Part shown: piece by piece, positions 11,115 to 61,376 of the stretch
Numbering within the stretch: position 1 is the stretch's first letter
Layout of the letters: every line of letters begins with the position of its first letter
Assembly: GCA_043801595.1 (NCBI GenBank)
Contig: JAZDLW010000022.1
Coordinates: 26,812 to 90,811 of the forward strand
Direction of reading: 5' to 3'
DNA from: Candidatus Aenigmatarchaeota archaeon
GTDB taxonomy: Archaea > Aenigmatarchaeota > Aenigmatarchaeia > JACPZZ01
Length of the DNA stretch: 64,000 nt
Notes under the pieces: model-generated
What the model was told of the DNA's origin: nothing
Databases searched by the model: none
Seen by the model: the letters and a program-made list of their open reading frames with translations, nothing else
Made by a program: the position numbers and the translations under genes

Positions 11115-11161
11115 CAGCGGTTTGCTGTGCAAACCGCGCATAGGAAACTTGGTTTCCTATG
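11115..11161 (+). mobile_element. Family A double-hairpin mini-element (47 nt) in a family C palindrome
   Basis: CAGCG-GTTTGC-TGT-GCAAAC-CGC-GCA-TAGGAAAC-TTG-GTTTCCTA-TG; removal restores TTCAAACTT-TAAGA-AAGTTTGAA. Confidence 0.75.
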
Positions 11162-11191
11162 AAGTTTGAACAAACGAGAAAAGTCTTTGGA

Positions 11192-11241
11192 CAACGAAAA
11201 TCATAGATTTTCGTGCACAGGAAATCAACAGATTTTCTGTG
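11192..11241 (+). mobile_element. Family A double-hairpin mini-element (50 nt)
   Basis: CAACG-AAAATC-ATA-GATTTT-CGTGCA-CAGGAAATC-AACA-GATTTTCTG-TG. Confidence 0.75.
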
Positions 11242-16372: not shown

Positions 16373-16473
16373 CAACGGAAACCTATGGTTTCAACGAAAA
16401 CTCAAGAAGTTTTCGTGCATAGGGAAACTCGGTTTCCCCATGCCGTGCATAGGAAATTGTCGAATTTCCTATG
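16373..16473 (+). mobile_element. Two nested family A elements (inner 16392..16442)
   Basis: Removing the inner unit restores ACGGAAACC-TAT-GGTTTCCGT; removing the outer unit restores TAAACTTTT-TAA-AAAAGTTTA. Confidence 0.8.
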
Positions 16474-24293: not shown

Positions 24294-24394
24294 CAACGGA
24301 AAGCTTCTGCTTTCAACGGAAGCCACAGGTTTCCGTGCACAGGAAAATCGTGATTTTCCCGTGCCGTGCATAGGAAATTTCCGAATTTCCTATG
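24294..24394 (+). mobile_element. Two nested family A elements (inner 24314..24363)
   Basis: Removing the inner unit restores ACGGAAAGC-TTCT-GCTTTCCGT; the outer unit sits in a GACCTTT...AAAGGTC palindrome. Confidence 0.8.
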
Positions 24395-24950: not shown

Positions 24951-25000
24951 CAACGGAAAGCCGAAGCTTTCCGTGCAAAGGAAACGCATCGTTTCCTTTG
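24951..25000 (+). mobile_element. Family A mini-element (50 nt) in a family C palindrome
   Basis: CAACG-GAAAGC-CGAA-GCTTTC-CGTGCA-AAGGAAACG-CAT-CGTTTCCTT-TG; flanks TAAACTTCT/AGAAGTTTA. Confidence 0.8.
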
Positions 25001-37677: not shown

Positions 37678-38171
37678 AAGGAATAGTTATAGTGCGGGAT
37701 TTCCTGATATTTATCGCAGAGCTCGCTGTACTGTTGTTCAGCCTCGTTTTCATAACACAGGCCGGCAGCCAGATGGGCGATTTCGTTTTCAATTTCGATT
37801 CGCGTGTAGCATCGGAAACTATATTCGGCTTCGAAGCTGCGGCCGATATGTCAGGCGGAAATTTTGAAGCTGGTTTCACGATGCCTGCAAACCCGTACAA
37901 ACTTTCCATAGGAACTGACAACGGAAATTATTTTGTGCTGATTGATTCGTCGCGCGAAACATTCCACGCGCCTGGTGGCGTTACGATAAAATTCCAGAAG
38001 CCGAGAAAATTGTTCCTTATACACACGATCGGCAATAATCTTGCGGTGCTTGACGGCGAGATTGCTGCGCCTGCAGGCGGAAAGATGAGCGAAAGCCAGA
38101 ACTGGCGTGTGGACGTGAAGCGTGTTAACAACGATATCAGCGTAAGCGCGATTCCGCTGGGGGCGAAGTAA
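37674..38171 (+). CDS. Pilin-like protein
   Basis: MKG|IVIVRDFLIF; ATGA overlap. Confidence 0.6.
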   Translation: MKGIVIVRDFLIFIAELAVLLFSLVFITQAGSQMGDFVFNFDSRVASETIFGFEAAADMSGGNFEAGFTMPANPYKLSIGTDNGNYFVLIDSSRETFHAPGGVTIKFQKPRKLFLIHTIGNNLAVLDGEIAAPAGGKMSESQNWRVDVKRVNNDISVSAIPLGAK

Positions 38172-53154: not shown

Positions 53155-53304
53155 CAGCGAAAATCCGACGATTTCAACGAAAACCATTAGGTTTCAACGA
53201 AAAACCGAAGTTTTTCGTGCATGGGAAAATTCGATTTTTCCATGTCGTGTATAGGAAATCGATGATTTTCTATGTCGCGAATAGAAAACCTGTGGTTTTC
53301 TATT
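53155..53304 (+). mobile_element. Three nested family A elements (50+50+50 nt; inner 53195..53244, middle 53175..53274)
   Basis: Sequential removal restores ACGAAAACC-ATTA-GGTTTTCGT, then GCGAAAATC-CGAC-GATTTTCGC. Confidence 0.85.
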
Positions 53305-59026: not shown

Positions 59027-59386
59027 TCATTGCGGCGCGTAGCTGTTGAACGCCTTTTCAAGTTCGTTCCTGTAGTCCGGAATTCTTGCCCAATATTCGG
59101 CAGCAGAATATACACCTTTTCTTACAAAGGCTTCTGTTAAACCGAGATGGTTTTTGAACTGCCTCAATTGCGTATCTATCACAGCATTACCATTCTCGCA
59201 CAAAACAATATCATGCGTTGCACTCCAGCCTTTCTTTTGTATGTCAAAGTGATATTCAGAAGCGGACGGATCCCCTTTTCGCACTTCCGGCAGGATGAAC
59301 CTTGAAGCGTTTACGCAGTTCTTTGTGAAACTACCATTAGTATACATTTGTCTTGCCTGACGAACCAGATCTTTGAACATCTTCAC
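59027..59386 (-). CDS. Hypothetical protein
   Basis: 119-aa ORF between ftsY and srp54; NC...H..V pattern weakly papain/transglutaminase-like. Confidence 0.45.
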   Translation of the reverse strand: MKMFKDLVRQARQMYTNGSFTKNCVNASRFILPEVRKGDPSASEYHFDIQKKGWSATHDIVLCENGNAVIDTQLRQFKNHLGLTEAFVRKGVYSAAEYWARIPDYRNELEKAFNSYAPQ

Positions 59387-59526: not shown

Positions 59527-60849
59527 ATGGTTTTAGACAAACTCGGTGACGCACTCTCAAACGCATTGCGAAAGATAGCAGGCAAAGGCTACGTTGATCA
59601 GGCTGTTGTCGACGAATTTATCCGCGATTTGCAGCGAGCGCTTCTGCAGGCTGACGTGGACGTTAAGCTTGTTTTCAGCCTTTCCCAAAAAATACGCGAC
59701 AAGGTGCTGAAGGAAAAACCGCAGTCAGGAATGACGCCGAAAGAGCACATGGTCAAGGTTGTTTACGACGAACTTGTAAATTTTCTCGGAAAAGAGACGG
59801 GTTCGGTTGAACTGAAAAAACAAAAAATACTTTTAATCGGTTTGTTCGGTTCGGGAAAGACGACGACAGCTGCGAAACTTGCGAAGTTTTTCGTCCGCAA
59901 AGGATTGCGTCCTGCGTTGGTCGGTTGCGACGTTTTCCGGCCCGCTGCCCAAGAACAGATTTTACAATTGGGCAGCCAAATTGGAGTTCCTGCTTATGCA
60001 ACCGGCAAAGATCCGGCGAAAATAGTTGCGGAAGCGATCAGGAAATTTTCCGACTGCGATGTAATAATATTCGATTCTGCTGGGCGCAACGCGTTGGACG
60101 CGGAGCTTGTTGACGAACTAAAATCGATAAAGGACGCAGTGAAGCCGGACGAGGTTTTCCTTGTTATTCCGGCGGATATCGGCCAAGCGGCCGGAAAGCA
60201 ATCCGAAGAATTTTCGAAAATCGTAGGCATAACAGGCGTAATAGTAACGAAAATGGACGGAACAGCAAAAGGCGGCGCTGCGCTGAGCTCTTGTTCAATC
60301 GTTAACGCGCCCATAAAATTCATCGGAGCTGGCGAGAAAGTTGATGATTTAGAGCAATACGACCCGAAGCGATTTGTCTCGCGATTAATCGGCTACGGCG
60401 ATTTGCAGAGCCTTATTGAAAAGGCGGAGGAAATAAAGACGCCAGAATTGGCAAAGTCAGCCGAAAACATGATCAGCGGAAAATATTCTTTGCAGGATTT
60501 TTACGAACAGATAGAATCGATAAAGAAGATGGGACCCCTGAAGCAGGTTATGCAGATGATACCCGGACTGAAAATGCCGGAAGGAATTCTGGATGTGCAG
60601 GAAAAACAGATGGCCAAGTGGAAAGTTGCGATGGATTCCATGACCCGTAGTGAAAAGTTAAATCCTGAGATAATCGACCAGTCGAGGATACGGCGGATCG
60701 CGGGCGGCTCCGGATTAAAAGAAGACGATGTGAAGGAACTGATAAAACATTATGACCGCACCAAAAAGGTAATGAAAATGATAGGCGGAAAAAACCTAAA
60801 GCGCGGTAATCTGTCCCAGTTGGCAAAACAGTTCGGAATGGCTGTGTGA
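59527..60849 (+). CDS. srp54: Signal recognition particle protein SRP54
   Basis: ALLQADV, GLFGSGKTTT, DSAGR, TKMDG, M-domain SMT..E..SRIRRIAGGSG. Confidence 0.97.
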   Translation: MVLDKLGDALSNALRKIAGKGYVDQAVVDEFIRDLQRALLQADVDVKLVFSLSQKIRDKVLKEKPQSGMTPKEHMVKVVYDELVNFLGKETGSVELKKQKILLIGLFGSGKTTTAAKLAKFFVRKGLRPALVGCDVFRPAAQEQILQLGSQIGVPAYATGKDPAKIVAEAIRKFSDCDVIIFDSAGRNALDAELVDELKSIKDAVKPDEVFLVIPADIGQAAGKQSEEFSKIVGITGVIVTKMDGTAKGGAALSSCSIVNAPIKFIGAGEKVDDLEQYDPKRFVSRLIGYGDLQSLIEKAEEIKTPELAKSAENMISGKYSLQDFYEQIESIKKMGPLKQVMQMIPGLKMPEGILDVQEKQMAKWKVAMDSMTRSEKLNPEIIDQSRIRRIAGGSGLKEDDVKELIKHYDRTKKVMKMIGGKNLKRGNLSQLAKQFGMAV

Positions 60850-61376
60850 TTGCTTTGAAGATCGGCGTATTCGGAGATGCGCACATACCTGATCGTGCCC
60901 ATAATATTCCAGAATCAATCAGGAAAGAACTTTATTCGTGCGATATGATTGTCTGTACCGGAGACTTGACGGGCGAGGACGTTGTCAAATTTATCAAAGC
61001 GTCAGGAAAAAAACACAAAATCGTGCGCGGGAACATGGACCATTTGGATTTTCCGAAGACCGAAAGCATTGATATAGAAGGAAAGAAGATAGTTATAACA
61101 ACGATTTGCTTTGCAAATCGTGCATAGGAAATCGATATTTCCTATGCGCACAGCGACGAAGTGAGGCCGAGAGGCGACAAAGAACAGCTGTTCGGAATTG
61201 CGAAAAGATATTGCGCTGATGTTTTGGCGTACGGGCATACACACAAACAGGACGTATGGGAAAAAGACGGCATAATGTTCGTGAATCTGGGATCAGCGAC
61301 AGGTTGCGGCAGAACAGGACAGCATTGTGCGGTTATTGAAATAAAAAATAATTCGATAAACGTGAAAAGGGTTTGA
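60846..61376 (+). pseudogene. YfcE/Vps29-family metallophosphoesterase interrupted in frame by a 48-nt family A element carrying TAG
   Basis: DAH, GDL, GNMD in the first ORF and HSD, GHTH, NLGS in the second; both in the same frame; excision gives KIVITHSDEV. Confidence 0.8.
61099..61146 (+). mobile_element. Family A mini-element (48 nt) inside a CDS
   Basis: CAACG-ATTTGC-TTT-GCAAAT-CGTGCA-TAGGAAAT-CGAT-ATTTCCTA-TG. Confidence 0.85.

What the first reader, a model, noticed from the sequence alone, without database searches (positions are those of the whole stretch)
60846..61376. Vps29/YfcE gene split by an in-frame 48-nt element: pseudogene or removable insert?
Seen: the two ORF halves are in the same frame. 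The insert (61099..61146, 16 codons) carries the only stop (TAG 61125..61127) and lies just before a conserved His. Precise removal gives ...KIVIT-HSDEVRPRGD... with all metallophosphoesterase motifs intact. The empty site is the palindrome GTTATAA^C. The gene lies in the srp54-pus10-rpl21e-rpo4 run. Inference: either a very recent insertion (an active element), or precise DNA excision or RNA processing acts as a switch. I see no clear BHB motif at the junctions.
Basis: partly seen in the sequence, partly recalled or inferred. Interest (0 to 1): 0.75.

Follow-up and report, generated by a model that had tools for sequence, protein, structure and literature searches.

The report
Hairpin elements repeatedly break one gene
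A 48-base piece of DNA made of two hairpins, one copy of a repeat family spread through this tiny archaeon's genome, puts a stop codon into a Vps29-like phosphodiesterase gene and likely knocks it out; proteins from two other species are cut off at the same codon, one likely by a different hairpin family, so this spot is likely an insertion hot spot rather than an intron.

Summary
Observation confirmed. The 48-nt insert (61099-61146) is two abutting perfect hairpins, one of 56 such units in this Aenigmatarchaeota genome (47-52 nt, CA..TG ends, no target duplication, often nested). The family is in 6 of 6 congeners and 0 of 54 other relatives. The scan noted it earlier elsewhere in this genome. 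All 6 congeners and a closer metagenomic relative have the empty, intact gene. There is no BHB motif, TAG is a normal stop, and a readthrough model puts the His in a low-confidence stretch.

New here: two other species' proteins end at the same codon, one with the identical 8-residue tail and one with the tail of a second hairpin family. The site abuts a 32-nt block of unusual synonymous conservation with a BRE-TATA-like motif 22 nt upstream. Best reading: a recurrent insertion hot spot that yields young pseudogenes (0.6). A reversible DNA in/out switch is not excluded (0.2); RNA removal or recoding is unlikely (0.1). No mobilising enzyme was found, and no reads of this organism cover the site.

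The parts
60846..61098 (+). 5' part of the yfcE/Vps29-like metallophosphoesterase gene. GTG start overlaps the srp54 stop; TTG at 60855 is where congeners have ATG
61065..61096 (+). 32-nt block with unusually conserved synonymous sites, directly upstream of the insertion point; function unknown, possibly an internal promoter
   Evidence: 31 of 32 identical to G006, 30 of 32 to G005
61061..61076 (+). BRE-TATA-like motif whose TATA part (61069-61076) ends 22 nt before the insertion point, the modal TATA-to-start distance in these genomes; predicted only
61099..61146 (+). 48-nt double-hairpin element ('AB' unit), CA...TG ends, no target duplication
61101..61121 (+). hairpin A: perfect 9-bp stem, 3-nt loop
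61123..61146 (+). hairpin B: perfect 10-bp stem, 4-nt loop (11 bp if G61122 and flank C61147 are counted)
61125..61127 (+). in-frame TAG; part of the constant foot of hairpin B, present in this frame in 16 of 42 frame-preserving units
61147..61376 (+). 3' part of yfcE, with the conserved His (61149-61151) and the Pro148Leu change in NPGS (61287-61289)
11115..11241 (+). two further AB units (11115-11161, 11192-11241), same family
   Evidence: C17:37926-37972, 38003-38052
16373..16473 (+). nested AB-in-AB pair, same family
   Evidence: C17:43184-43284
24294..24394 (+). nested AB-in-AB pair, same family
   Evidence: C17:51105-51205
24951..25000 (+). AB unit in the loop of another hairpin repeat
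   Evidence: C17:51762-51811
53195..53244 (+). AB unit within a larger hairpin cluster
   Evidence: C17:80006-80055

Best explanation
The insert is one copy of a genus-wide family of ~48-52-nt two-hairpin DNA elements, and it likely landed recently at an insertion hot spot in a probably dispensable Vps29/YfcE phosphodiesterase gene, so this allele is likely a young pseudogene that would make only a 90-93-residue fragment lacking the C-terminal metal ligands. SHOWN: family membership, element ends, no target duplication, nesting, empty alleles in relatives, truncation at the same codon in two other species' proteins. INFERRED: the element moves as DNA, mobilised in trans by an unidentified enzyme (a single-strand, hairpin-recognising HUH-type enzyme is my guess, from the hairpins and the lack of duplication); the site is attractive because it abuts a conserved cis element, most likely an internal promoter for pus10-rpl21e-rpo4 whose start site coincides with the insertion point; coding insertions survive only if stop-free and in frame, or in genes the cell can lose.
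For: 56 AB units at 43 loci in G000; duplication of 3, 4 or 5 nt in 1, 2 and 0 of 56; removing inner units regenerates outer ones. The family reuses exact bonds: 20 of 126 unit records (16 distinct) sit exactly 5 nt before the end of another unit's hairpin A. 6 of 6 congeners are empty and intact. A closer relative (13 differences in 172 nt upstream) is empty; X1 contigs show Pro at the NPGS codon. Of 148 double hairpins in four genomes, 8 were flagged as inside genes and 4 are true insertions: two stop-free and in frame (rtcA in G000, a membrane-protein gene in G005), two with stops, in yfcE and in an IS200 transposase of G006. yfcE was matched in only 13 of 41 related genomes. It is the only mid-gene stop, by eye, among 509 orthologue-like hits. 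P0001 and P0014 end 8 residues after the same codon, and P0014's tail fits the second family's reading frame. Synonymous identity in the 10 codons upstream is 0.87, top 0.08% of 47,397 windows. The BRE+TATA score ranks 1 of 381 registers (tied with one other) under a strictly trained model, top 0.2% of random coding positions.
Against: Decay is not demonstrable: dN/dS against congeners is 0.065-0.114 (5 of 6 pairs computable), versus 0.067-0.159 among intact genes, and 14 of 16 intact orthologues also carry a private change at an otherwise invariant column. G000 and P0001 share an identical tail that only 1 of 101 distinct units encodes, yet differ at 17 of 81 residues with only 1 at the 30 invariant columns (p=0.004), and a G000+P0001 clade is not rejected (p-AU 0.54). 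That fits an old, tolerated insert equally well unless the insert moved sideways. All 7 genus representatives keep the gene, although frequent lethal hits should lead to losses. The full 35-nt strict promoter model ranks the register only 3 of 381, and other non-hairpin sites are not clearly at start sites (3 of 23 against a 5% null). No mobiliser was found in G000 (86% complete).
Confidence: 0.6

Rival explanations
1. Reversible DNA switch: the element goes in and comes out precisely at this bond, so populations hold both alleles and the gene stays under selection, as in insertion-sequence phase variation.
For: No target duplication, so exact removal leaves no scar. Filled and empty alleles are interleaved: G000's nearest known relative is empty, P0001's nearest (P0015, 83%) is intact, and the tree needs 3 changes with 0% of 200 bootstrap trees needing one. 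Interrupted copies show little decay. Two element families appear at one codon. Precedent: IS492 and IS1301 insert at one hot spot and excise precisely (passage in PMC5493358).
Against: No direct sign of excision. No candidate enzyme in G000. If removal were efficient, stop-bearing copies should occur in essential genes; none was seen among the 4 coding insertions in about 3.4 Mb. Repeated gain or sideways transfer explains the same pattern.
Confidence: 0.2
2. The insert is removed from the mRNA, as a cbf5-like archaeal intron or by an unknown non-BHB route, and the full enzyme is made.
For: The size resembles cbf5 introns (16-44 bp; passage in PMC2738675). Family copies lie inside tRNA introns of this genome. 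The G000-P0001 divergence happened under purifying selection.
Against: Central helix at most 2 of 4 and exon helix at most 1 bp in 9 of 9 registers, against 4 of 4 and 4-6 bp in 3 of 3 tRNA introns. In those tRNAs the element is an antisense passenger inside a longer intron with its own BHB. Both ends are locked in the element's own stems.
Confidence: 0.06
3. The ribosome reads through or hops over the TAG, giving a protein with 8-16 extra residues.
For: The insert keeps the frame. A GCA codon followed by UAG at the 5' foot of a stem-loop resembles T4 gene 60 bypassing (recalled, not from a call), and a synonymous GCG lies just before the His.
Against: TAG ends 50 of 255 genes whose ends coincide with G006 orthologues. 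48 nt is simply the modal length of this subtype (11 of 16). The TAG belongs to the constant foot; the copy in the G005 membrane-protein gene has an Arg codon there. The identical GCA downstream (61148-61150) is out of frame (sequence). The readthrough model has pLDDT <50 over residues 89-108, including His102.
Confidence: 0.05
4. Assembly artefact: a repeat copy was misplaced into the gene.
For: No raw reads of this organism could be laid across the site.
Against: This exact unit occurs once among 101 distinct units. An independent NCBI protein from another species has the same tail at the same codon.
Confidence: 0.02

Closest known systems
Haloquadratum transposase-free elements: PATEs and SMR-A small mobile repeats (PMC3119063, passages read)
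   Same: Archaeal, too short to code, no target duplication. PATEs have palindromes and no terminal inverted repeats, and terminal-only forms are 52 bp. SMR-A insert within the near-terminal palindromes of PATEs and IS605-type elements, as AB copies do at IS605-type right ends in G004. Mobiliser enigmatic.
   Different: The whole element is two abutting hairpins with freely covarying stems. I saw no likeness by eye to the IS200/IS605 end hairpins in these genomes. Terminal inverted repeat only 2 nt, unlike SMR-A. Nests in itself. Recurrent entry into one codon of a host gene.
Bacterial REP/BIME/REPIN and RAYT; intragenic REPs and Rickettsia RPEs (PMC3733652, passages read)
   Same: Short dispersed palindromes, paired units, mostly extragenic, some in-frame intragenic copies (rtcA and the G005 membrane gene here). 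The paper notes REPs at about the same site of recB in two Xanthomonas species.
   Different: No GTAG or CGTC tag. No RAYT flanked by these repeats was found. Two different hairpins in tandem. Archaeal host. The copy here carries a stop.
IS-mediated phase variation: IS492 in eps, IS1301 in siaA (one passage in PMC5493358)
   Same: Single hot spot in a gene, inactivation on insertion, exact restoration if excised.
   Different: Those are autonomous transposase-coding elements with demonstrated excision. Here the element is 48 nt, non-coding, and excision is untested.
Crenarchaeal cbf5 pre-mRNA introns (PMC2738675, passages read)
   Same: Short insert in an archaeal protein-coding gene at a conserved position.
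   Different: cbf5 introns need a BHB-like motif formed with the exons. None is present here.
YfcE / Vps29 / MJ0936 metallophosphoesterases (TIGR00040, PF12850)
   Same: Both halves match TIGR00040; the intact orthologue P0004 hits Vps29 structures at E 4e-23 and MJ0936 weakly.
   Different: This allele is interrupted; enzyme activity was not tested.

Membership tests
Archaeal BHB intron (cbf5 type) | 4-bp central helix between exon 1 end and intron end, flanked by 3-nt bulges and an exon-exon helix | tested here: not met
   at most 2/4 and at most 1 bp in 9 of 9 registers; control 4/4 with 4-6 bp in 3 of 3 tRNA introns
Archaeal BHB intron (cbf5 type) | spliced mRNA observed | not testable with these tools
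   no RNA holder listed
MITE (TIR + TSD) | terminal inverted repeats related to a transposon and a target duplication | tested here: not met
   only CA/TG at the ends; duplications of 3-5 nt in 1, 2 and 0 of 56
PATE (IS200/IS605-derived) | no terminal inverted repeats, no target duplication, non-coding, palindromes near the ends | tested here: met
PATE (IS200/IS605-derived) | palindromes similar to those of a resident IS605-type element | tested here: not met
   IS200 ends at L134 and G006:C5 are GC-rich hairpins unlike AB, compared by eye; no AB unit in L134 or L135
PATE (IS200/IS605-derived) | fixed 4-5-nt target sequence next to one end | tested here: not met
   flank base counts show no consensus beyond A/T at -1; many flanks are other repeats, which biases the counts
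REP/BIME with RAYT | GTAG (or CGTC) tag at the foot of the hairpin | tested here: not met
   unit sequences
REP/BIME with RAYT | Y1 transposase gene flanked by the repeats | tested here: inconclusive
   PF01797 absent from G000 (86% complete), found in 1 of 5 congeners without AB flanks, and an interrupted copy in G006
SMR-A-like palindrome-targeting repeat | preferential insertion into palindromes and other mobile elements without duplication | tested here: met
   empty site inside a hairpin with a stem of 6 bp or more at 45 of 76 loci; 20 of 126 records nested at one bond
SMR-A-like palindrome-targeting repeat | about 110 bp with prominent terminal inverted repeats | tested here: not met
   47-52 nt, 2-nt inverted ends
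IS-type phase-variation switch | recurrent insertion at one site | tested here: inconclusive
   3 of 19 aligned orthologues end at this codon, but two are known only as proteins
IS-type phase-variation switch | precise excision within a population | not testable with these tools
   only contigs of relatives were laid
Stop-codon reassignment (TAG) | TAG read as sense genome-wide | tested here: not met
   TAG ends 50 of 255 genes at orthologous ends; no other mid-gene TAG among 509 hits, by eye
YfcE/Vps29 metallophosphoesterase | family profile match and conserved D-x-H, GD, GN-x-D, H, GH-x-H motifs | tested here: met
   the motifs are split by the insert and NPGS reads NLGS

The most novel reading that the evidence does not exclude
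A conserved 32-nt promoter-like block inside yfcE is a docking site at which two sequence-distinct families of 48-nt, enzyme-free double hairpins enter and leave with base precision. That would give a DPANN archaeon a minimal phase-variable on/off switch for a Vps29-like phosphodiesterase, driven by an unknown hairpin-moving enzyme that needs no target sequence and leaves no scar.
Probability: 0.15. Interest if true: 0.8.

Novelty: new variant of a known kind. Interest (0 to 1): 0.5.

Why it matters
The family behaves like known transposase-free palindromic elements but fits none of their definitions, and my paper searches found no description of it. This locus gives what intergenic copies cannot: an exactly defined empty site conserved across species, apparently hit by two element families. 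That makes it a ready substrate for finding the mobilising enzyme and for testing whether scarless excision happens. If excision is real, a 48-nt non-coding switch would be a very small phase-variation device, and a scarless, sequence-tolerant insertion enzyme would be of wider interest. If not, it still shows how hairpin repeats break genes in reduced archaeal genomes.

Tried and rejected
BHB intron: no motif in 9 registers. TAG recoding: rejected; ARAGORN's 'tRNA-Pyl' on C19 is a tRNA-Arg(UCU) with an intron. Frame preservation as a sign of function: explained by the subtype's modal length. Relaxed selection: not detectable. Sequencing runs: no RNA holder listed, and three DNA runs with small shares that proved to be relatives, so no read test was possible. 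Metagenome scan with the protein: 1 distant locus from 202 candidates. DNA of the P0001 and P0014 genomes: not among 371 genomes of the class; no accessions; no earlier notes. Separately annotated C-halves: no candidates. The 133 distant representatives: I read 11 of the short ones and saw no hairpin-type tail. Viral contigs: 2 matches, neither with hairpin A. Mobiliser: Y1 transposase, IS110, reverse transcriptase and tyrosine recombinase families were all absent from G000 and found in 1 of 5, 0 of 6, 2 of 6 and 2 of 6 congeners. The sigma-70 scan was uninformative. A first EM promoter model gave only 1.4 bits at this register in G000. The high score used a seed widened after I had seen the candidate, so I rely on the strict rerun. 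General targeting of start sites: not shown (3 of 23). No conserved hairpin at the empty site. The conserved block has no close copy elsewhere in four genomes. Rows dropped: 4 of 8 in-gene flags (three were native coding sequence, one hit a doubtful ORF); stop-flagged hits that lay before the start, at the terminus or on antisense ORFs; P0019 (a 97-aa fragment, intact across the site) was left out of the trees.

Full report
Observation. The stretch 60846-61376 reads as one frame with a single TAG at 61125-61127. Both halves match the YfcE phosphodiesterase model TIGR00040, and an intact orthologue hits Vps29 structures at E 4e-23. The gene lies between srp54 and pus10 in this genome and in 6 of 6 congeners. 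All six congeners have an intact gene, and the DNA alignment shows a gap of exactly 48 nt at this place. A contig from run X1, a closer relative with 13 differences in the 172 nt upstream, skips 61099-61146. Record titles and protein names of the relatives say Aenigmatarchaeota, so I infer the same for this genome.

What the insert is. It folds into two abutting perfect hairpins, A (61101-61121) and B (61123-61146). The genome holds 52 B-type hairpins against 0 in five shuffles. A recursive search finds 56 A+B units of 47-52 nt at 43 loci. Nearly all begin CA, all end with G (mostly TG), and they make no target duplication (3, 4, 5 nt: 1, 2, 0 of 56). Their stems vary while staying paired. Removing inner units regenerates outer ones, up to three levels deep. 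The empty site lies inside a hairpin of at least 6 bp at 45 of 76 loci in four genomes, and 20 of 126 unit records sit exactly 5 nt before the end of another unit's hairpin A. Copies also lie in tRNA introns and in the right-end hairpins of IS605-type elements. The junction motif occurs in 7 of 61 related genomes: this one and 6 of 6 congeners, 0 of 54 others. In the species-wide collection 42 of 46 matches are archaeal, and the 4 bacterial and 2 viral matches lack hairpin A. Earlier agents of this scan described this family on other parts of the genome. I had found it before that look-up, and their notes agree.

Is it removed or read through? No bulge-helix-bulge forms at any of 9 registers (central helix at most 2 of 4), while the same test gives 4 of 4 with 4-6 bp exon helices in 3 of 3 tRNA introns. 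cbf5 introns depend on such a motif (passages of PMC2738675). TAG ends 50 of 255 genes whose ends match G006 orthologues. By eye, yfcE is the only true mid-gene stop among 509 orthologue-like hits. Frame preservation carries no signal, since 11 of 16 units of this subtype are 48 nt long. The TAG is part of hairpin B's constant foot. An AlphaFold model of the readthrough form (19 sequences) has pLDDT below 50 over residues 89-108, which include the His that follows the insert. Low confidence is weak evidence, but it gives no support. A ribosome hop in the manner of T4 gene 60 (recalled) would need to land on a non-identical Ala codon and would leave 8 extra residues before the His.

Other coding insertions. 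I searched G000 (814 kb), G006 (947 kb, whole), G005 (731 kb, nearly whole) and G004 (892 kb of about 1.1 Mb). Of 148 double hairpins, 8 were flagged as inside genes and 4 are real insertions, all 48 nt. Two are stop-free: rtcA in G000 and a membrane-protein gene in G005. Two carry stops: yfcE, and an otherwise intact IS200 transposase in G006, which is broken by a second double-hairpin family with different feet ('E'). yfcE was matched in only 13 of 41 related genomes. This is the pattern expected if inserts are not removed: stop-bearing ones persist only in genes that can be lost. With four cases it is suggestive only.

The surprise. A protein search with the N-terminal half returned 16 proteins, two of them 90 residues long. 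P0001 (79% identical to this N-half) ends with the same 8-residue tail. P0014 (77%) ends 8 residues after the same codon with a tail that matches the reading frame of family E; that peptide pattern occurs at 3 distinct places in the DNA held, all E elements. So 3 of 19 aligned orthologues are cut at this codon, apparently by two families. Both are known only as proteins; I could not reach their DNA. The three do not group: the tree needs 3 changes and 0% of 200 bootstrap trees need one, but 81 columns cannot reject a single clade (p-AU 0.33), nor G000+P0001 (0.54). P0001 is closest to intact P0015 (83%), and G000's nearest known relative is empty. The pattern therefore needs at least two gains plus a further gain, a sideways transfer or a precise loss. 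Only 1 of 101 distinct units encodes this tail, though a unit 3 nt away exists in a congener. G000 and P0001 diverged under purifying selection (1 of 17 differences at the 30 invariant columns, p=0.004). Either the shared insert is recent in both, or it is old and tolerated. This is the main evidence against my preferred reading.

Why this bond? The ten codons just upstream have synonymous identity 0.87, in the top 0.08% of 47,397 interior windows, though 13 of 180 genes have such a window somewhere. The 32-nt block is 31/32 identical to G006, where overall dS is 1.7. It contains a BRE-TATA-like motif ending 22 nt before the insertion point, the modal TATA-to-start-codon distance in these genomes. 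With a model trained on 32 strict TATA promoters, BRE+TATA ranks this register 1 of 381 (tied with one other; top 0.2% of coding positions). The 35-nt model ranks it 3 of 381, the first EM model scored it poorly in G000, and other sites are not clearly at start sites. An internal promoter for pus10-rpl21e-rpo4 is plausible, since pus10 starts 4 nt after the yfcE stop. It is a prediction.

State of the gene. dN/dS against congeners is 0.065-0.114, like 0.067-0.159 among intact genes. This allele has Leu for the Pro of NPGS, where all 18 other aligned sequences and the X1 contigs have Pro, and TTG for the congeners' ATG. But 14 of 16 intact orthologues also show a private change at an otherwise invariant column. 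Decay is neither shown nor excluded; a very recent insertion predicts exactly this.

Mechanism and verdict. Shown: a scarless, structure-targeting, nested family of two-hairpin elements, with one copy in yfcE and empty alleles in relatives. Inferred: DNA-level mobility in trans, a hot spot at a conserved cis element, and loss of function of this allele. No mobiliser was found in G000, which is 86% complete; IS200 transposases exist in G004 and, interrupted, in G006. It works like the palindrome-targeting repeats and PATEs of Haloquadratum (passages of PMC3119063) and like intragenic REPs (passages of PMC3733652), but fails defining features of each. Phase variation by IS492/IS1301 (passage of PMC5493358) is the model for the switch reading.

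Literature. Searches for Aenigmarchaeota with palindromic and hairpin, DPANN with repetitive extragenic palindrome, Aenigmarchaeota with mobile element, intron and repeat, DPANN protein-gene BHB introns and Vps29/YfcE in archaea listed nothing on this element or gene; I saw only those listings. The library lacks most subscription papers, and I read no supplements. Odds: hot-spot pseudogene 0.6, reversible DNA switch 0.2, RNA removal 0.06, recoding 0.05, artefact 0.02; the rest is unassigned. Interest 0.5.

Noticed in passing
G000:C23:79587-79634 (L228): A 48-nt AB unit sits antisense, in frame and stop-free in rtcA (RNA 3'-terminal phosphate cyclase), adding 16 residues; the C-terminal His aligned with the G006 orthologue is kept. 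Both coding insertions in G000 are in genes for phosphate-handling enzymes, which may be chance.
   Followed up: partly
G006:C5:95321-95368 (within L097): A 48-nt family-E double hairpin interrupts an otherwise intact IS200 tnpA with in-frame stops.
   Followed up: partly
G005:C3:255443-255490 (within L175): A 48-nt AB unit in the same orientation and phase as in yfcE but stop-free, inside a 232-aa membrane-protein gene.
   Followed up: partly
G000:C2:11925-11974 and C14:17366-17416: Second double-hairpin family ('E') with different feet, also in congeners and in hybrid combinations with AB-type stems.
   Followed up: partly
L044, L060 and G004:C11:37016: AB units at the same bond in the right-end hairpin of IS605-type (tnpB) elements; one of these tnpB genes is largely deleted.
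   Followed up: partly
G000:C19:6366-6533, C21:17876-17925, C30:22003-22176: tRNA-Arg(UCU), tRNA-Cys and tRNA-Asp carry 88-100-nt BHB introns filled with nested hairpin repeats; ARAGORN miscalls the first as tRNA-Pyl and misses the second.
   Followed up: partly
protein P0015 against P0001: 4 differences in the first 62 residues but 10 in the 19 before the insertion site, a mosaic pattern that suggests recombination or past relaxed selection next to the site.
   Followed up: partly
L230 (G006:C3:1-3497) and L229 (G003): A reverse transcriptase gene in 2 of 6 congeners; in G006 the DNA at its 5' end resembles the 3' end of the upstream ORF, which looks like a diversity-generating retroelement (label from recall).
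   Followed up: no
window 59027-59386 (- strand): A 119-aa ORF between the ftsY-like gene and srp54 with no NCBIfam match.
   Followed up: no
G000:C6:5261-6600 and L043: Several AB or B copies cluster in a region without long ORFs that has a homologue in a congener carrying the unit closest to the yfcE insert (3 nt apart); nature of the region not determined.
   Followed up: no
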